Shown: one piece after another, positions 23,949 to 62,887 of the stretch
Layout: each line of letters opens with the position of its first letter
How positions within the stretch are numbered: the first letter of the stretch is position 1
DNA from: a virus
Virus record (IMG/VR): IMGVR_UViG_3300032315_000675
Location: 13,404-77,403 of that record
DNA length: 64,000 bases
Direction: 5' to 3' (one strand)
The notes under the pieces: model-generated
What the model was told of the DNA's origin: nothing
The model's database searches: none
Seen by the model: only the letters and a program-made list of their open reading frames with translations
Made by a program: the position numbers and the translations under genes

Positions 23949-24356
23949 ATGGCTGAACAAGATCAAACAATCATCCTGACCTGTAAAGGATCGGGCACCG
24001 AACAGTGGACGGCGGTATGTCCTGACTATCCGAAGGACGTTACCTCGGGGCACACTGCTTCGCAGGCCCTTCAGGCTTACAACATCATGCTCTGGCGGAA
24101 GCACTACGATAAGCGGGCGCGCATGGACAAATGCCGTGGCCTGCTACGTGATGAGGTCCGTCGTGCTGCTGGTATCCCTGAATGGGCTTTGCGTTTCCCG
24201 CGTTGGCTTCTCTGGAATAAGAAGGAACGGGATAGTCAGTACGACCGTATGGCCGAGATTGTGAGGCGTATCAGTGCAGCGCCCAATCTCCAGGATGCCA
24301 CTTATGAGGAAGTGACCAAGCTCAGTATTGCCGAGTTCAAGGGTTTGGTTAAGTAA
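23949..24356 (+). CDS. hypothetical protein; N-terminus weakly HicB-like
   Basis: WTAVCPDYPKDVTSGHTASQAL. Confidence 0.55.
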   Translation: MAEQDQTIILTCKGSGTEQWTAVCPDYPKDVTSGHTASQALQAYNIMLWRKHYDKRARMDKCRGLLRDEVRRAAGIPEWALRFPRWLLWNKKERDSQYDRMAEIVRRISAAPNLQDATYEEVTKLSIAEFKGLVK

Positions 24357-24492
24357 TAATTGATGTCTGGAAATGCTAAAGTTTCAAAATAACTGTTGCT
24401 TTTTCCTGTAAAGCGTATGTAATAGAGTATAAGCTGAGAAACAGAGATTTGATAATGTTTGAAGTAACTACCGAGAAGCTCGGAGAATCACA

Positions 24493-25275
24493 ATGACCCC
24501 GTTTATGCCGACAGTCACCCTGTCCCCGGATGCCCTTGTGCGTATCGAGGGTGGCGAGGTTATAACATGGGCCGAGTGCGAACGCCGTTTACTTGCCGCC
24601 CGCACCCCTGACAAAGCCGGCAAAAGACGCCTAAAACTATACCCCTCTGATCCAAAAGGACCGCCCATGTTAAGAAAGCAAATGACCGCCCATGCACCAG
24701 AGGGTGAGCCGCTGTTTGTTAGCGTGACTTGCGGAGGCGAACTCTGCTGGTGCGGAAAGCCTGCGGTCCGAAAGGTTGGGGAGGAGTTTGCGTATGACGA
24801 GCCGAACCCTGAACGACACAACCTCACTCGGTATATCTGCGCCTATCACTTCGCTGAACTCATGGGGCCTGCAGGTGCGCGATCTGTCGGCATTGCCCCT
24901 GCCCCAGAGGGGGAGGCGTGGCGGACTGTTCCGGTAGAGCCGACCGAAGCGATGTTGGACGCGATGTTCACCGCGTATGTCGGCAGCGAAGGCAGTTACC
25001 GAGCCGCCTACTGTGCAATGCTCGCAGCATCCCCTGTCGTTCCGGTAGAGGTGAGCAGGGAGATTGATTTCCCCACAGTTGACGAGCCGATGGCAGACGG
25101 CTTTTTGTATCGAACCACAGTTACCGGCGAGCGCCACATCGTTCATGCCGATACTGGGTTTGTCCTAGTCAAGTTACCCTACGACTATCGTTTTACCGAC
25201 AACGCGACGCAGCGTAGTAACGCCGACGCCATCCTCGCAGCCCTTCGCCCTACCGATACAGGGAGGGAAGGGTGA
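24493..25275 (+). CDS. mosaic hypothetical protein (GC-rich block)
   Basis: contains shared linkers PEGEA, ASPVVPV, ILAALRPTDTGRE; VPVEPTEAML motif. Confidence 0.7.
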   Translation: MTPFMPTVTLSPDALVRIEGGEVITWAECERRLLAARTPDKAGKRRLKLYPSDPKGPPMLRKQMTAHAPEGEPLFVSVTCGGELCWCGKPAVRKVGEEFAYDEPNPERHNLTRYICAYHFAELMGPAGARSVGIAPAPEGEAWRTVPVEPTEAMLDAMFTAYVGSEGSYRAAYCAMLAASPVVPVEVSREIDFPTVDEPMADGFLYRTTVTGERHIVHADTGFVLVKLPYDYRFTDNATQRSNADAILAALRPTDTGREG

Positions 25276-25496
25276 TGGTTCGGCAGAGTTTTCGTTGTGA
25301 TTTGTTCGGACACAAAATGCCGGAACAAGGGTGGTGGGGAGACGGGCTTTATGGCCGGGTCGTTCCCGGCGGCACTGACGGTATCGGTCGATCACATTTT
25401 GACGTTGTTCTCACCTGCCCGCGATGCGGCGCAGATTGGACCACCGCCCGCTTCCACGGTCATCAAGTAGAAAAATACATGGAGCGTCCCCAATGA
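25272..25496 (+). CDS. small Cys/His protein
   Basis: CDLFGHK...CPRCG; GTGA overlap. Confidence 0.65.
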   Translation: MMVRQSFRCDLFGHKMPEQGWWGDGLYGRVVPGGTDGIGRSHFDVVLTCPRCGADWTTARFHGHQVEKYMERPQ

Positions 25497-25765
25497 CCAC
25501 CCCTGACATAGCCGATCTGTTGCACGAGCCTTACCCGCACCCCGCAGTGCCGGTTTACGATCGGACCCGCGATGAGTTTGCAATGACTGCACTGACGGGG
25601 CTTCTATCGGGTCGCGCGTTCTGGTACACCGACGCCTCTAACTATGCAAAAGCTGCCTACATCATTGCCGACGCCATGCTAGCAGAGAGAAACATCATGA
25701 CCCCCGACGAACTCCCCGCTGACGCAAAGCCCGAGCCGCCCTTAAAGGAGAAGACTAATGAATGA
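25493..25765 (+). CDS. hypothetical phage protein
   Basis: RDEFAMTALTGLL...AYIIADAMLAER, a motif common in temperate-phage early genes. Confidence 0.7.
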   Translation: MTTPDIADLLHEPYPHPAVPVYDRTRDEFAMTALTGLLSGRAFWYTDASNYAKAAYIIADAMLAERNIMTPDELPADAKPEPPLKEKTNE

Positions 25766-25952
25766 GATCGATGCAATCCGTCACGTCCGTAAACAGTCAG
25801 AGACTCAGTTTGAGCCCGTCATGCGTAATCTTATTACAGCTATCGGGCAAGCGGAGCGCTTAGGTACGCTAACGCAAGAGCAATTCGATCAACTACATCA
25901 GGCAGCTGATCGACTCCTTACTGCTGCACAGACATCAAAATTGCTAAAATAA
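25758..25952 (+). CDS. hypothetical protein
   Basis: AAGGAG SD. Confidence 0.65.
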   Translation: MNEIDAIRHVRKQSETQFEPVMRNLITAIGQAERLGTLTQEQFDQLHQAADRLLTAAQTSKLLK

Positions 25953-26015
25953 AGGTTGCTTTATTCTTATAAAGTGTATACATTAAATTATAAGCTGAGA
26001 CACAGAGAGATACAC

Positions 26016-26486
26016 ATGAAATTGTTTCTGGTAAAATTCACTGTTTCGTCGTCAACGTATATGAATGACGATGAACGCGACGATGAATACACCCGTATGG
26101 TGGAAGCGGTTGACGAAGACCATGTCGAACGTATTATCAAAAATCAACCAGAGTTTAAAACCGATGAGTATTCGGTTTATCGTCGGGTCTATTTTAATGA
26201 AATTACTACGGTCTTGAGGGATTCGTCAAATTCATCCCCCGACGAACTCCCCGCTGATATGGAGGCGGTTGTCGCGCGGCTTGAGGTGTCGGCAATCGAC
26301 CCTGTTCCGTGGTCGGACCTCCGCGCCCTCCTGAAAGCATACCAAGAGCAGCGCCGGGCTTTGGTGGCCTGTCGGGGTGCCGCCGCGCCGCTGCTGGAGC
26401 AATCCGAAGACCGTGTCTGGCGTCGCGCCAAGATGATCGTGGACACGGTTGACACCGCCCTCAACCAGAAAGGTGATGAACGATGA
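26016..26486 (+). CDS. chimeric hypothetical protein (AT-rich N-half fused to GC-rich C-half at PDELPAD linker)
   Basis: composition shift at ~26236, at a 22-bp repeat shared with 25701. Confidence 0.65.
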   Translation: MKLFLVKFTVSSSTYMNDDERDDEYTRMVEAVDEDHVERIIKNQPEFKTDEYSVYRRVYFNEITTVLRDSSNSSPDELPADMEAVVARLEVSAIDPVPWSDLRALLKAYQEQRRALVACRGAAAPLLEQSEDRVWRRAKMIVDTVDTALNQKGDER

Positions 26487-26986
26487 GCGAGAAACTGTTA
26501 CCTTGTCCGTTCTGTGGGGGCGAAAGTAACCTTTGGCACAACCCGCCGCACAGTTTTGGCGTGGTCTGCGATGCTTGCGGCTGCGAAATTACTGGGCCGG
26601 ACAACACTCGCGCGGGAGCCATCGCAGCATGGAACCGCCGCACCCCTGCACCAGAGGGGGAGGCTTCGCTTTGGGGCTGCGCTGACGGGAACGGAATAGA
26701 CCCACGGTTGGTCTTCCGTGACAGGCCCACTGCCGAACAGGTCGCCGCTGATATGAATATGGTGGTCCAGCCCCTCTACGCATCCCCTGTCGTTCCGGTA
26801 GGGGTGAGCGAAAGAATGGATGAAGTCAAAAGCTGGGTGGAAGACGCGGAGTGCAGCCGAGGTTGCTCGTCTTGGCGTCCTGACGTTCACGGGCGATCAC
26901 GTTGTGACTGTGGGCGAGGGGATGCGCTTGAAGCCACCGACGCCATCCTCGCAGCCCTTCGCCCTACCGATACAGGGAGGGAGTGA
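26483..26986 (+). CDS. Lar-family restriction alleviation protein fused to variable modules
   Basis: LLPCPFCGG...VVCDACG...AIAAWNRR. Confidence 0.8.
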   Translation: MSEKLLPCPFCGGESNLWHNPPHSFGVVCDACGCEITGPDNTRAGAIAAWNRRTPAPEGEASLWGCADGNGIDPRLVFRDRPTAEQVAADMNMVVQPLYASPVVPVGVSERMDEVKSWVEDAECSRGCSSWRPDVHGRSRCDCGRGDALEATDAILAALRPTDTGRE

Positions 26987-27378
26987 TGGGACGCAAACTC
27001 TACCCGTCAAACCCAAAAGCACCGCCGCCTAAACAGGAACCCCCAATGACCACCACTGACATAGCCGGTCTGTGCGAAGGGTTTGACGAACTTCTGATTT
27101 CCCTTCGCAGTGAGACCGATAGCCATCCTCGTGGGGGTCGGAGGCTTGTAAATCCCGATGGCCCCGAAGCAGCCGACACCCTTGAACTCCTAGTCGCTGA
27201 GGTGGAGCGGATGCGGGAGGCTTTGGAGTTCTACGCTGACGAAGATAACTGGTTCGGAGTTTACATGACTGGTTGCGGACCAATGGCTGATGATTGGTCC
27301 ATCGACGGTCACCCCTACTGGCCAGATGGAAAGCCCGGAAAAACCGCCCGAGCCGCCCTTAAAGGAGAAGACCAGTGA
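26983..27378 (+). CDS. hypothetical phage protein
   Basis: NPDGPEAAD, MREALEFYA, ARAALKGE. Confidence 0.7.
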   Translation: MMGRKLYPSNPKAPPPKQEPPMTTTDIAGLCEGFDELLISLRSETDSHPRGGRRLVNPDGPEAADTLELLVAEVERMREALEFYADEDNWFGVYMTGCGPMADDWSIDGHPYWPDGKPGKTARAALKGEDQ

Positions 27379-27525
27379 GCCTAAGACTTTCACGTAAGAC
27401 ACAATTTGTCGAAGGTGGCCTTCTTGATCTTTTATCTTATTTGGATTCTATATCCGGATGGGTAAACTATTGTGAAATTACATTTCTTGAAAGAGGTTAC
27501 GTTGTCCGCACAGGAGAATAATAAT

Positions 27526-27837
27526 ATGGAAGAACTTAAAAATTGGAAACCAATCTCAGACGCACCTAAAGACGGCGCGGCGATCTATACTCACGATGGA
27601 GCGAATCCTGTTATTGCCGCTTGGTGTTCTTGGCCCAACCACAGTTTCGAAGAGGAAGGTCCGTGGTGGAACCGAAGAAAGGTCAAAGTAGAAAAGCCCA
27701 ACACAGAGGGCTGGTATGCCGTATATTGTGTCCGTGGTAAATGGACCGCTTCTCACCAGATTTTCCCATCACTTTGGAGGCCCTTGCCAAAGATGCCTTG
27801 GGAATGCATCCCTACCGATACAGGGGTGGAAGGGTGA
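27526..27837 (+). CDS. DUF551-like phage protein
   Basis: WKPISDAPKDG...PSLWRPLP; AGGAG SD. Confidence 0.7.
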   Translation: MEELKNWKPISDAPKDGAAIYTHDGANPVIAAWCSWPNHSFEEEGPWWNRRKVKVEKPNTEGWYAVYCVRGKWTASHQIFPSLWRPLPKMPWECIPTDTGVEG

Positions 27838-27941
27838 TGGGCTTCGTAATCGGCATAGTGATCGTTTCGGGTCTCGTCATCGCCATAGGCTTCGCTCCTG
27901 CGAAGAAAGACTATCGCACCCTGACATGTGACTTCGACTAG
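27837..27941 (+). CDS. small membrane peptide
   Basis: TGATG overlap; hydrophobic. Confidence 0.45.
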   Translation: MGFVIGIVIVSGLVIAIGFAPAKKDYRTLTCDFD

Positions 27942-27955
27942 AAAGGTGATGAACG

Positions 27956-28147
27956 ATGACCGATACAGTAGAAGAATTATTCCGAATGCAAGTTGCACAT
28001 GGGCTGGAGAAGTCCACGTTGCTAAAAGACTCCGGAGGTTGGCCGGACTACCAAGAAATTTCTGATTACATTGATCGAATGGACAAAACAGAGTTTCTTT
28101 TGTATCTATCGATAGCGATTGAAGATCGACTTAGAAATCTGGAATGA
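27956..28147 (+). CDS. hypothetical protein
   Basis: AAGGTG SD within the shared linker. Confidence 0.6.
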   Translation: MTDTVEELFRMQVAHGLEKSTLLKDSGGWPDYQEISDYIDRMDKTEFLLYLSIAIEDRLRNLE

Positions 28148-57891: not shown

Positions 57892-57896
57892 ATAAA

Positions 57897-58033
57897 CTAT
57901 TTTGAAGAACACTGACTTACCTCAATATCGTAGCTCGGGCTGCATCAGATATATCTTGGTTATTCCGCTAAGAACCAACTATCTTCATCCCTCTTTTACT
58001 CTGGATAGTCGGCATCAGTATTCATCAAAATAG
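57897..58033 (-). ncRNA. stem-bounded small RNA B
   Basis: CTATTTTGATGAATACTGA...TCAGTGTTCTTCAAAATAG terminal stem. Confidence 0.6.
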
Positions 58034-58034
58034 A

Positions 58035-58130
58035 CTATTTTGAAGAACACAGCAGCTTCACCTTACTCCCTGTTAGGGCTGGGAAACGGACATCTTGCGA
58101 TGCTGCCATATACTGTGTTCATCAAAATAG
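58035..58130 (-). ncRNA. stem-bounded small RNA A
   Basis: CTATTTTGATGAACACAG...CTGTGTTCTTCAAAATAG terminal stem; internal GCAA tetraloop hairpin. Confidence 0.6.
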
Positions 58131-58155
58131 TCTAATATTATTTAGTCTATTTATA

Positions 58156-59045
58156 ACCCACCCTGAGATTACGGGCTTGTAGCGAGTGTCTTTGGTCATT
58201 ACCGAATCCCTTGCGAGGACCGTTCTACCGTTATCCACTAACGCCTTTTACGGTCAGTTAGTAACACTCAATGCTGCCTTTTTGAGAGTCTGGCGTTTGA
58301 CTCGTCGCATATGTCTACTCGACCATCTATCCTTCGCCTGCCTTGCGAGCAGTTCGATTCCGCTAAGAACCTACGCTTTCTTTCCGATCAATCAGTTCCG
58401 CCTTGCGAGCATCCCTGAACCACATTCCCTTGCGAGTGTGGTATTAAGCACCTTTAAACATATACCGGAGCAGTCTTTCGCTTTTGTGAGACAAACTAGG
58501 AGTTGAACCTAGATCGACAGTATCTAAAACTGTTGCATTACCATTATGCAATTTGCGAACCTACGAAGATGTGCTGCTCCAGTTGCTCCATATCTTGTTA
58601 GATACAGAATACAACACACCTAGTATCTTTCTCCTTGCGGGATACTCAATCATACTTCACGACTCCGGTCATCCCTTCATCGCTTGTATTGCTATCTTGC
58701 CTTTCCTTGCAAGGTCAGACTCAATAACTACCTGTTAGTATTCAGCATTCATCAGTTTGGCTAGTTGAAGTTCGGGCGCCAACCCTCTTAGAACTCACCG
58801 ACTGGCTCTGTTCCTATCCTTTCGGACTTCAACTCTGATTTACTGCCTACCGCCTTTCTACAGACGGGAGTTGCTTTCGCTTAAGCGAGTCAACTCTAAC
58901 TCAGGCTTGCATAGATGGACCATTGCTGGCGCAAGTTTATAGGAAACCTTGCTTTGACAGAGATTACTCCCTGCTACCCTAGTGAGGCTATGCCCCCAAT
59001 TCTTGTACTCATTAGAAGAATGTAGTGCCTTGCCGCAACAACACA
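58156..59045 (-). ncRNA. large ornate ncRNA, GOLLD-like
   Basis: ~890 nt without a credible ORF; many C-GCAA-G and GAAA tetraloop hairpins; GGAGCAG/CTGCTCC long-range pairing; embedded tRNA fold; lies within a tRNA cluster. Confidence 0.7.
58490..58556 (-). tRNA. tRNA-like domain inside the large RNA (TAG at anticodon position, no CCA)
   Basis: D arm GCAT/ATGC, anticodon arm ACAGT-TTTAGAT-ACTGT, T arm CTAGG-TTCAACT-CCTAG; 5-bp acceptor stem. Confidence 0.65.
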
Positions 59046-59047
59046 AT

Positions 59048-59119
59048 TGAATACGGTGCCTCGGAATCGAACCGTCCCACCGGACTATCGCCCAGCTGCT
59101 CACCCTAGCTTCACCGCAC
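59048..59119 (-). ncRNA. degenerate tRNA-like element
   Basis: GTGCGGTG/CACCGTAT acceptor-like stem, GGTTCGATTCC T-loop, non-canonical anticodon loop, ends TTCA. Confidence 0.5.
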
Positions 59120-59151
59120 ACTACACTCATCTAATGAGTATATCATTAACA

Positions 59152-59222
59152 ATTTCAAAGAACGTCAAGCCGATCTCTCGACTTGATTTACGTAATATAC
59201 TTATTCTTGACCTCAATGTCAA
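59152..59222 (-). promoter_or_regulatory. sigma70 promoter followed by boxB-like hairpin and boxA-like antitermination site
   Basis: TTGACA-17-TATATT; TCAAGTCGA-GAGA-TCGGCTTGA; CGTTCTTTGAAA. Confidence 0.7.
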
Positions 59223-59521: not shown

Positions 59522-59941
59522 TCATCGATAATCGTGATCTAACTTAACGTCGGTTAGACCGGCAATCATCTGAAACTGTTCCCATGCATTTTTAGCAGCA
59601 GGGTTACGCTCTAGCTCAGAGTCAGTAAGAACTGTCTCCAACCAAATCTCCGGACGACGATAAGGGAGAGCCCCGAACTTGCGTGGTTGATGCAACTTGC
59701 CTTTATTGTAGAGATCCAGTGTTACATCACGGAATTTCTGTTCATCTTCATCCGTGTAGCCATACCATTCTACATGGCTAAACCCGCCGCCGTATGTATA
59801 CCCTTGCCAGATTGACTTCCATTGCCCATCATTAGTAGGATCAAAGTCCGTGCGGGCGATCAACACCAATACATCATCGATGTTGACCTTACCCTCAACG
59901 ATATCCTTAACACAGCGACTGTAGCTAAGACCGATCTTCAT
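59522..59941 (-). CDS. hypothetical protein
   Basis: IGLSYSRCVKDI...GKLHQPR; AAGGA SD. Confidence 0.75.
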   Translation of the reverse strand: MKIGLSYSRCVKDIVEGKVNIDDVLVLIARTDFDPTNDGQWKSIWQGYTYGGGFSHVEWYGYTDEDEQKFRDVTLDLYNKGKLHQPRKFGALPYRRPEIWLETVLTDSELERNPAAKNAWEQFQMIAGLTDVKLDHDYR

Positions 59942-61503: not shown

Positions 61504-61589
61504 TGGAGGACGTAGTGAGGTTCGAACTCACAAGGCATTTCTGCGGCAGATTAAGAGTCTGCTGGACCAACCAATTGTCCAATACGTCC
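61504..61589 (-). tRNA. tRNA-Lys(CTT) with long variable arm
   Basis: GCAGA-CTCTTAA-TCTGC; 14-nt variable region with GCA-GAAA-TGC hairpin; TCCA end. Confidence 0.85.
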
Positions 61590-62175: not shown

Positions 62176-62251
62176 TGGTAGGCGAAGCCGGACTCGAACC
62201 GACAACTATTCTGTTATGAGCAGAAGGTTCCACCAATTGAACTATTCGCCT
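62176..62251 (-). tRNA. tRNA(CAT), probably Ile2 (lysidine type)
   Basis: AGGCGAA/TTCGCCT acceptor; loop CTCATAA; Ile2 assignment is inferred from it being the third CAT tRNA. Confidence 0.8.
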
Positions 62252-62732
62252 TTAATTTTTTTATTGCCCACGCATCACGAAGTTTTTGTTTATGTTCTTC
62301 AGATTTGGGTTTACCTTTATTAGCTAGACCGCCTTTTCTTCCGTTACCTACAAGGTCCAATTTAGGTCTAGCAGCTAGATTGCCCTTTTTACCGTTCTCG
62401 GATAATTGTTCTTTTGTCAATTTTTTCAGTGATGCTTCATTACCCTTACGTGCATTCTCTTTAGTAAATCCACCTACTCCACCTAATCGCATGTTATAGT
62501 TTTCACGTGAGGTAAAATCTTCTGTTAATTTCTTCTCATATGCATATGCTTCATCTTTAGATTCGGTAACAAAAATAATCTCTTTGATAAAATTTTCTCT
62601 ACCGTATTCTTTAATAGCAGATTTGATCGCACGACCTGAACCCATATATGAATCATTTGGGTTCATTGTCATATGAACGCCGATATAGTATTTGTCATTT
62701 GTTTTGTTAGTAATTTTGTAAACAGTATACAT
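62214..62732 (-). CDS. GIY-YIG homing endonuclease (Seg-like) with NUMOD3-like tail
   Basis: TVYKITN...YYIGVH, YMGSG, YGRENF, YN...GG.GG, KSEEHKQKLR. Confidence 0.9.
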   Translation of the reverse strand: MYTVYKITNKTNDKYYIGVHMTMNPNDSYMGSGRAIKSAIKEYGRENFIKEIIFVTESKDEAYAYEKKLTEDFTSRENYNMRLGGVGGFTKENARKGNEASLKKLTKEQLSENGKKGNLAARPKLDLVGNGRKGGLANKGKPKSEEHKQKLRDAWAIKKLKANSSIGGTFCS

Positions 62733-62766
62733 ATAATTCTCCTTATATGTATTTATACAAAACTTA

Positions 62767-62797
62767 CGAACGGCTCTAACCATTGAGCTATCAGCGC
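62767..62797 (-). pseudogene. orphan 5' half of a tRNA
   Basis: GCGCTGA-TA-GCTC-AATGGTTA-GAGC-CGTTCG, then interrupted by the endonuclease promoter. Confidence 0.75.
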
Positions 62798-62805
62798 ATT
62801 AGTTT

Positions 62806-62887
62806 TGGAGCACCGGGTAGGAATCGAACCTACTCTACTTACGAAGCGGATTTGCAGTCCACCGCATTCCCAATCTGCCACCGGTGC
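62806..62887 (-). tRNA. tRNA-Cys(GCA) with enlarged variable region
   Basis: GTGGA-CTGCAAA-TCCGC; 12-nt variable region; U73; CCA. Confidence 0.88.

What the first reader, a model, noticed from the sequence alone, without database searches (positions are those of the whole stretch)
58156..59119. ~900-nt GOLLD-like ornate RNA carrying two non-canonical tRNA folds
Seen: no convincing ORF; at least five CGCAAG tetraloop-type motifs plus GAAA loops on the minus strand; GGAGCAG/CTGCTCC long-range complementarity flanking an internal cloverleaf (58490-58556). That cloverleaf has TAG at the anticodon position, a short variable loop unlike tRNA-Leu, a 5-bp acceptor stem and no CCA. A second degenerate cloverleaf (59048-59119) abuts the 5' end. 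Established: GOLLD RNAs are ~800-nt GNRA-rich phage-associated RNAs near tRNA genes, sometimes with an internal tRNA, and their function is unknown. Inference: this is a GOLLD member, and its tRNA parts may be processing signals or decoys rather than chargeable tRNAs.
Basis: partly seen in the sequence, partly recalled or inferred. Interest (0 to 1): 0.75.

Follow-up and report, generated by a model that had tools for sequence, protein, structure and literature searches.

The report
Phage GOLLD RNA with tRNA mimic
This stretch is a genuine member of the known giant phage RNA family GOLLD, sitting in the tRNA island of a huge uncultured phage, and the tRNA-shaped piece in its middle is a mimic that lacks the end needed to carry an amino acid.

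Summary
Rfam's GOLLD model (RF02032) hits window 58160-58622 (-) over its full length at 191.6 bits (cut-off 150). A structured 5' domain (58997-58623) brings the core to about 840 nt. Thirty related IMG/VR sequences support 160 base pairs, 113 of them with compensatory changes.

The internal cloverleaf (58558-58488, anticodon TAG) is real but not a normal tRNA:
- It has five acceptor pairs, no CCA, C73 and a 4-nt variable loop.
- The same defect appears across the clade. In 28 distinct linker modules only pairs 4-69 to 7-66 are kept, and none encodes CCA, against 439 of 447 free tRNAs in the same loci.
- The anticodon is not conserved. There are ten triplets, and a relative 97.5% identical to the window has TAT instead of TAG.

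The "second cloverleaf" is weak. It is a degenerate tRNA-like tip of a leader hairpin, replaced or absent in close relatives, and lies outside the conserved GOLLD.

GOLLD, its cage structure and pseudo-tRNAs in its linker are already in print. This scan also noted acceptor-less linker mimics on other DNA (e1-6036292). I class this as a new member of a known kind, useful mainly for the quantified tRNA-mimic features.

The parts
59194..59222 (-). Sigma-70-like promoter, TTGACA-17-TATATT (11 of 12 matches). The predicted start lies near 59187.
   Evidence: Both hexamers are kept while the spacer varies in L075, L003 and L074 (alignment A1).
59165..59186 (-). 5'-terminal hairpin, 9 bp with a GAGA tetraloop. 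It is probably a transcript-stabilising stem rather than a terminator.
   Evidence: One compensatory change (U-G to A-U) is seen in L003.
59013..59142 (-). Long leader hairpin with base stem UACUCAUUAGA/UCUAAUGAGUA.
   Evidence: The region 59000-59190 folds with z -4.1. The tip is called only by ARAGORN at -ps80, and Rfam finds no tRNA. The tip is replaced in L074/L075, and the whole hairpin is absent in L003.
58623..58997 (-). GOLLD 5' domain (variable 'cap' domain), not covered by the Rfam model.
   Evidence: It is alignable in 54 IMG/VR loci through the motif at 58931. Many helices show compensatory changes.
58160..58622 (-). GOLLD 3' domain (conserved 'ring' domain), including the linker.
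   Evidence: RF02032 at 191.6 bits against a cut-off of 150, model positions 1-416.
58574..58580 (-). 5' strand (GGAGCAG) of the helix that closes the linker.
   Evidence: It pairs with 58473-58467. Four of its seven pairs show double changes in 30 sequences (columns 496-502 with 624-630).
58467..58473 (-). 3' strand (CTGCTCC) of the helix that closes the linker.
58488..58558 (-). Linker tRNA mimic. The D arm (with G18 G19), anticodon arm (loop UUUAGAU) and T arm (UUCAACU) are intact. The acceptor has only 5 pairs, there is no CCA, and the variable loop is 4 nt.

Best explanation
Window 58997-58160 (minus strand) encodes a GOLLD RNA of about 840 nt, in the tRNA island of an uncultured jumbo phage (a 77-kb fragment, CheckV 22% complete, so a genome of roughly 350 kb).

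Transcription (inferred): the RNA is made from its own sigma-70-like promoter at 59222-59194. It is probably part of a longer precursor that also holds a structured leader, two downstream long hairpins and tRNA-Met/tRNA-Gly, and it is trimmed out by host RNases.

Assembly (inferred by homology to the solved env-38 and S. agalactiae GOLLDs): the 5' and 3' domains fold separately, and the RNA assembles into a closed 12- to 14-mer cage with the linker pointing inwards.

Linker module: in this clade the linker is a tRNA-shaped module closed by a covarying 7-bp helix. It keeps the tRNA elbow, the anticodon stem and U33, but has only a 4-5-bp acceptor stub and no CCA. It is therefore a tethered tRNA mimic that stays part of GOLLD, not a gene for a decoding tRNA-Leu.

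Likely role (inference only): the mimic presents a tRNA-like surface to a tRNA-binding host or phage factor inside or at the cage.

Shown: family membership, structure conservation, the mimic's defects, and anticodon turnover. Inferred: the transcript ends, cage formation, and any ligand.
For: - Family membership: RF02032 hit at 191.6 bits over the full model. GOLLDs in cultured phages score similarly: Cp1R7A-A1 193.5, Vibrio D69 186.2, DSS3_MAL1 160.5.
- Structure: 160 consensus pairs, 113 with compensatory changes, across both domains in 30 homologues.
- Promoter hexamers are conserved.
- Acceptor in the 28 distinct mimics: pairs 4-69 to 7-66 are paired in 27-28 of 28, with CG/GC/AU/UA switches. 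Pairs 1-72 to 3-70 are mismatched in 11-16 of 28.
- CCA: 0 of 28 mimics against 439 of 447 free tRNAs in the same loci. 397 of those 447 free tRNAs have a perfect acceptor stem. All nine free tRNAs in the window have CCA and an acceptor with at most one mismatch.
- Anticodon: ten triplets occur, including Leu and Ser anticodons on class-I bodies. TAG versus TAT at 97.5% backbone identity, and CTT at 92.7%. U33 changes once on the tree while position 34 changes nine times.
- Two cultured-phage GOLLDs show the same stub and no CCA.
- Literature: a 14-mer cage with the linker inside and tRNAs sometimes in the linker (PMC12286853); a pseudo-tRNA in mycobacterial GOLLD with no separate transcript seen on Northern blots (PMC6582537); an 'inhibited storage' idea (PMC12990946).
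Against:
- Cage formation is inferred from homologues whose 5' domains differ, and the stoichiometry varies between solved GOLLDs.
- RNase P and tRNase Z can cut some substrates with short or imperfect acceptor stems, and host CCA-adding enzyme could add CCA, so release of a small RNA is not excluded.
- In one subclade positions 35-36 stay UU in every member, so the triplet is not free of all constraint there.
Confidence: 0.8

Rival explanations
1. The linker cloverleaf is a working tRNA gene. RNase P and tRNase Z cut it out, CCA is added, and it decodes CUA/CUG. GOLLD is then split into two halves that may still assemble.
For: ARAGORN and Rfam both call a tRNA. The D, anticodon and T arms covary like a real tRNA. 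U33 and mostly A37 are conserved. GenBank records annotate such elements as tRNA-Arg or tRNA-Leu.
Against: Only 5 acceptor pairs are present, and the outer pairs are unpaired across the clade. CCA is encoded in 0 of 28 against 98% of free tRNAs. The short variable loop and C73 conflict with the established bacterial LeuRS identity rules (A73, class-II body). The anticodon changes between 97.5%-identical relatives. In 9 of 29 loci the same anticodon is already supplied by a canonical neighbour. No separate pseudo-tRNA transcript was seen in a mycobacterial GOLLD (PMC6582537).
Confidence: 0.1
2. The mimic is bait or a sponge for tRNA-targeting defence enzymes such as anticodon nucleases. It is held in many copies by the cage, and its anticodon loop is retargeted as hosts change.
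For: The anticodon stem, U33 and R37 are kept while the triplet turns over. Lys and Asn triplets, known targets of anticodon nucleases (established knowledge: PrrC, RloC, colicin E5), dominate with 19 of 28. Whole modules are swapped between GOLLDs that are 99.5% identical (L080 versus L106). The same idea was reached independently on other DNA (e1-6036292).
Against: Anticodon columns are not exceptionally fast: they fall at the 54th to 90th percentile of all columns. The linker anticodon shows no association with the free tRNA set of the same locus (9 of 29 observed, 10.3 expected). According to cryo-EM the linker lies inside a closed cage. No nuclease is known for tRNA-Leu(UAG). Only 8 of 90 GOLLD 3' domains in a broad sample carry any linker tRNA.
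Confidence: 0.2
3. The mimic is a decaying relic of a tRNA that was captured in the linker, with no present function.
For: Some clade members have degenerate T loops or a truncated module (L087, L106, L093). Most GOLLDs lack a linker tRNA altogether.
Against: 33 of 34 distinct clade members keep the module. Compensatory changes occur in all three arms and in acceptor pairs 4-7. G18 G19, the T loop and U33 are conserved across backbones only about 70% identical.
Confidence: 0.08

Closest known systems
GOLLD RNA (Rfam RF02032; Weinberg et al. 2009; cryo-EM of env-38 and S. agalactiae GOLLD, PMC12286853 and PMC12990946)
   Same: Full-length match to the 3'-domain model. A ~400-nt structured 5' domain, many GNRA (CGCAAG) hairpins, a total of about 840 nt (env-38 is 833 nt), a phage origin, a place inside a tRNA array, and a linker between the domains.
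   Different: The 5' domain belongs to one sub-type, shared by 54 IMG/VR loci. The linker is almost always a tRNA mimic in this clade (33 of 34), against 8 of 90 in a broad sample of GOLLD 3' domains.
Pseudo-tRNA or tRNA embedded in the GOLLD linker J13/15 (Mycobacterium tRNA-array GOLLD, PMC6582537; tRNA-Phe noted in PMC12990946)
   Same: A tRNA-shaped insert lies at the same place and points into the cage. It has already been judged a pseudo-tRNA with no separate transcript.
   Different: Here the defect is defined precisely (a 4-5-bp acceptor stub, no CCA). The anticodon is Leu-type TAG on a class-I body, and it differs from the nearest relatives (TAT, CTT).
GOLLDs of the cultured phages Mesorhizobium phage Cp1R7A-A1 and Bacteriophage DSS3_MAL1
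   Same: Both give Rfam GOLLD hits (193.5 and 160.5 bits) with linker tRNA-like modules that lack CCA and have 3-4-bp acceptor stubs, inside tRNA arrays whose free tRNAs encode CCA.
   Different: DNA identity is only about 70% over part of the 3' domain. Their anticodons are CAG and TCT, and GenBank annotates the modules as ordinary tRNAs.
ROOL RNA (RF03087)
   Same: A large cage-forming phage RNA found in tRNA islands.
   Different: Its sequence and fold are unrelated. No ROOL hit was found in the window or in related loci.

Membership tests
GOLLD RNA (RF02032) | Covariance-model score at or above the curated gathering score (150 bits) over the whole 3'-domain model | tested here: met
   191.6 bits, E 2e-52, model positions 1-416 of 416, not truncated.
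GOLLD RNA (RF02032) | A second, less conserved, structured 5' domain of about 400 nt upstream of the conserved 3' domain | tested here: met
   58997-58623 aligns with 30+ homologues, and helices throughout show compensatory changes. There is no public model for this domain, so homology to the P1-P13 helices of solved GOLLDs was not tested.
GOLLD RNA (RF02032) | Encoded by phages or prophages, typically in or beside tRNA clusters | tested here: met
   The source is an IMG/VR virus record. Nine free tRNAs lie within 6 kb, and phage-type neighbours include a homing endonuclease and an endolysin.
GOLLD RNA (RF02032) | Self-assembly into a closed homo-oligomeric cage | not testable with these tools
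   This is known only from cryo-EM of other members (PMC12286853, PMC12990946).
Canonical elongator tRNA (RF00005), applied to the internal cloverleaf 58558-58488 | D, anticodon and T arms with the elbow nucleotides | tested here: met
   Rfam tRNA scores 49.3 bits (cut-off 29), but only over model positions 4-67. ARAGORN gives a cloverleaf. GG is present in the D loop and UUCAACU in the T loop.
Canonical elongator tRNA (RF00005), applied to the internal cloverleaf 58558-58488 | Seven-base-pair acceptor stem | tested here: not met
   Pairs 1-72 and 2-71 are mismatched and 3-70 is G-U. Across the clade only pairs 4-69 to 7-66 are conserved.
Canonical elongator tRNA (RF00005), applied to the internal cloverleaf 58558-58488 | 3' CCA, which is genomically encoded in these phages' tRNAs | tested here: not met
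   The discriminator C is followed by ACA. CCA is found in 0 of 28 linker modules against 439 of 447 free tRNAs.
Canonical elongator tRNA (RF00005), applied to the internal cloverleaf 58558-58488 | Body matching the anticodon's amino-acid class (bacterial tRNA-Leu: long variable arm, A73) and an anticodon conserved among orthologues | tested here: not met
   The variable loop is 4 nt and the discriminator is C73. Orthologous modules carry ten different anticodons, with TAT in a relative that is 97.5% identical.
tRNA, applied to the 'second cloverleaf' 59125-59051 | Detection by tRNA models at normal thresholds | tested here: not met
   Rfam gives no hit at E <= 10. ARAGORN detects it only at -ps80, with a 6-nt anticodon loop and a 3-bp T stem. 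The fold z-score is -0.68.

The most novel reading that the evidence does not exclude
The tethered, acceptor-less tRNA mimic is the business end of this GOLLD subfamily. On this reading the cage holds a dozen or so copies of a tRNA look-alike that captures or diverts a tRNA-directed host enzyme, such as an anticodon nuclease or a modification enzyme. The anticodon loop is retargeted by point mutation or module swapping as phage lineages meet different hosts: TAG here, TAT and CTT in relatives that are 97.5% and 92.7% identical.
Probability: 0.2. Interest if true: 0.8.

Novelty: new member of a known kind. Interest (0 to 1): 0.35.

Why it matters
GOLLD is one of the largest bacterial or phage non-coding RNAs, and its function is still unknown even though its cage structure has been solved.

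This locus belongs to a sizeable environmental jumbo-phage clade in which the inward-facing linker is almost always a tRNA mimic. The mimic has a sharply defined defect (a 4-5-bp acceptor stub, no CCA) and an anticodon that changes between near-identical relatives.

That gives a concrete handle for experiments: does the mimic stay tethered, what binds it, and does the triplet matter? It also warns annotators that 'tRNA' calls inside GOLLD should not be counted as decoding tRNAs.

Tried and rejected
- T-box-like 'specifier' search: I looked for a triplet anywhere in GOLLD that stays complementary to the linker anticodon across 30 homologues. The best column reached 0.50, against a shuffled-label 95th percentile of 0.47 and a maximum of 0.57, so there is no signal.
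- Linker anticodon versus free tRNAs of the same locus: present in 9 of 29 loci against 10.3 expected by permutation, so there is neither avoidance nor enrichment.
- Anticodon hypervariability: Fitch steps on a backbone tree put positions 34, 35 and 36 at the 90th, 63rd and 54th percentile of all columns. That is relaxed evolution, not exceptional.
- Rfam scan of 14 related jumbo-phage loci that share the upstream ORF but lack GOLLD: nothing was found, not even tRNAs, so there is no replacement RNA at that spot. Only 5 of 50 related records carry GOLLD, and the two near-complete genomes carry none.
- Other Rfam families for the leader and downstream hairpins: only noise, such as MIR860 at 23 bits.
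- Literature: the original GOLLD paper and the Mycobacterium tRNA-array GOLLD paper are not held in the library.
- Protein-coding reading of the region: only short, unconserved frames overlap it, and the covariation pattern is that of RNA helices.

Full report
**1. Observation**

The Rfam scan of the whole window gives one GOLLD (RF02032) match at 58160-58622 on the minus strand. It scores 191.6 bits against a gathering score of 150, with E 2e-52, covers model positions 1-416 of 416 and is not truncated (repeated).

ARAGORN and the Rfam tRNA model both find a cloverleaf inside this match, at 58488-58558, with anticodon TAG. The tRNA model aligns only over its positions 4-67.

Five CGCAAG motifs lie on the minus strand between 58210 and 58639. 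The window-wide density predicts about 0.13 in that span. Only short, unconserved ORFs overlap the region.

**2. Context**

The window is the last 64 kb of a 77.4-kb IMG/VR virus record that CheckV rates 22% complete, which implies a jumbo phage of roughly 350 kb.

The GOLLD lies in a minus-strand tRNA island. Nine free tRNAs lie within 6 kb, all with encoded CCA and at most one acceptor mismatch. Phage-type genes are interspersed, including a homing endonuclease.

A strong sigma-70-like promoter (TTGACA-17-TATATT) sits at 59222-59194. Its hexamers are conserved in three close relatives while the spacer varies.

The upstream ORF (59522-59941) has relatives on 67 IMG/VR contigs, including genomes of 347-349 kb. 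Only 5 of 50 of those records carry a GOLLD, and the two near-complete genomes carry none. Fourteen such loci have no Rfam hit at all near that ORF. The tRNA/GOLLD island is therefore an insertion specific to this lineage.

**3. Extent and structure**

Close relatives (L075, L074, L003) and a diverged one (L071) align from about window 58997 to 58160.

A motif from the 5' domain retrieved 54 IMG/VR loci, many from contigs of 100-364 kb. These include 34 distinct full-length sequences.

RNAalifold on 30 of them predicts 160 pairs, and 113 of these show at least one double compensatory change. The supported pairs are spread over both the 5' domain (58997-58623) and the Rfam-covered 3' domain.

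It closes the linker.

The conserved GOLLD core is thus about 840 nt, close to the 833-nt env-38 GOLLD whose structure was solved (PMC12286853).

**4. The internal cloverleaf is a tRNA mimic, not a decoding tRNA**

The acceptor in the window:
- It has four Watson-Crick pairs plus one G-U.
- Pairs 1-72 and 2-71 are mismatched.
- The discriminator is C and is followed by ACA.
- The variable loop is 4 nt.

The same holds across the clade. Of the 34 distinct full-length members, 33 carry the module. ARAGORN distinct modules across the retrieved loci (full-length or not), and those were analysed:
- Pairs 4-69 to 7-66 are formed in 27-28 of 28, with CG/GC/AU/UA switches.
- Pairs 1-72, 2-71 and 3-70 are mismatched in 15, 16 and 11 of 28.
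- None of the 28 encodes CCA. By contrast, 439 of 447 distinct free-standing tRNAs in the same loci do, and 397 of those 447 have no acceptor mismatch.

The D, anticodon and T stems all show compensatory changes. G18 G19, the T loop and U33 are conserved. Selection therefore maintains a tRNA-shaped body with a 4-bp stub.

The anticodon is not maintained:
- Ten triplets occur: GTT 11, CTT 4, TTT 4, TAG 2, TCT 2, and one each of TCA, GCT, TTC, TAT and TGA.
- Leu and Ser anticodons sit on class-I bodies.
- The window (TAG) and L105 (TAT) are 97.5% identical in backbone and 98.3% in tRNA body.
- L098, at 92.7% backbone identity, has CTT.
- L080 and L106 are 99.5% identical in backbone but carry different modules, which indicates cassette exchange.

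On a backbone tree, position 34 changes nine times, position 35 five times, position 36 four times and U33 once. This is relaxed evolution, not exceptional hypervariability. In one subclade positions 35-36 remain UU throughout.

Two cultured-phage GOLLDs, Cp1R7A-A1 and DSS3_MAL1, show the same stub and lack of CCA. The GOLLD of Vibrio phage D69 has no linker tRNA. In a broad sample only 8 of 90 distinct GOLLD 3' domains have a detectable linker tRNA.

**5. The second cloverleaf**

The element at 59125-59051 has an acceptor-like stem and a GGTTCGATTCC motif. The support for it as a tRNA is poor:
- ARAGORN calls it only at the 80% threshold, with a 6-nt anticodon loop and a 3-bp T stem.
- Rfam gives no tRNA hit at E <= 10.
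- Its fold is no better than shuffled sequence (z -0.68).

It forms the tip of a long leader hairpin at 59142-59013 (z -4.1 for 59000-59190). In L074/L075 the same hairpin base carries a different aberrant tRNA-like tip. In L003 the whole hairpin is missing, yet the GOLLD begins at the same place.

In other clade members, normal CCA-bearing tRNAs lie at a comparable distance upstream. I read the element as a decayed or remodelled upstream tRNA, outside GOLLD proper.

**6. Mechanism**

Shown here:
- Family membership.
- A conserved two-domain structure.
- A linker closed by a helix.
- A tRNA-shaped but acceptor-less, CCA-less module.

Inferred from cryo-EM of homologues (PMC12286853, PMC12990946): assembly into a closed 12- to 14-mer cage with the linker, and so the mimic, inside.

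Inferred from the mimic's defects, and from the absence of a separate pseudo-tRNA transcript in a mycobacterial GOLLD (PMC6582537): the module stays tethered. What it binds is unknown.

The bait hypothesis, in which the mimic diverts tRNA-cutting defence enzymes, is attractive but unsupported beyond the Lys/Asn bias and the triplet turnover. Three tests I could run gave no positive signal: specifier covariation, association with the free tRNA set, and hypervariability.

**7. Novelty**

The following are already in print:
- GOLLD as a family.
- Its association with phages and tRNA islands.
- Its cage structure.
- The occasional tRNA or pseudo-tRNA in its linker.

I reached the same pattern independently.

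This instance is a new member of a known kind. Its added value is the quantified contrast with free tRNAs and the TAG/TAT/CTT switch among near-identical relatives.

Noticed in passing
window 58134-58030 and 58040-57900 (minus strand): Two long hairpin modules lie between GOLLD and tRNA-Met. Each is closed by the inverted repeat CUAUUUUGAUGAA / UUCUUCAAAAUAG, and 57892-58160 folds with z -5.5. Module A recurs with a different tip in L074/L075, while module B is unique to the window. Module B contains a GGUUCUUAGCGGAAU hairpin nearly identical to one inside the GOLLD 3' domain (58373-58355). They may be RNase III-type processing stems or small RNAs.
   Followed up: partly
window 61504-61589 and 62806-62887 (minus strand): The free tRNA-Lys(CTT) is 86 nt and has a stem-loop in the variable region, like a class-II tRNA. 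The tRNA-Cys has an 11-nt variable loop. Both have perfect acceptors and CCA. These are unusual bodies for those anticodons.
   Followed up: no
L080 versus L106 (IMG/VR loci): These two GOLLDs are 99.5% identical outside the linker but carry different tRNA-like modules (59% identity). This points to cassette replacement by recombination rather than point mutation.
   Followed up: partly
L074:700-990 (relative of the window): A duplicated copy of the GOLLD promoter plus a small ORF is inserted between the promoter and the leader hairpin in this relative.
   Followed up: no
L130:2042-2458 (Bacteriophage DSS3_MAL1): A two-piece (permuted) alpha-proteobacterial-type tmRNA lies immediately downstream of that phage's GOLLD (Rfam 113-119 bits). 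GenBank annotates it as ssrA.
   Followed up: no
L079, L128, L129 linker; L154 linker: Some GOLLD linker mimics carry stop-codon-reading triplets: TCA in three loci (one distinct sequence) and CTA in one.
   Followed up: no
window 24001-28000: A G+C-rich island (0.54 against about 0.43 elsewhere) appears in the composition profile.
   Followed up: no
window 62214-62783 (minus strand): A homing-endonuclease ORF (phrog_314, E 4e-37) sits inside the tRNA array. Similar endonucleases flank the GOLLD/tRNA islands in Vibrio phage D69 and in the mycobacterial arrays.
   Followed up: no
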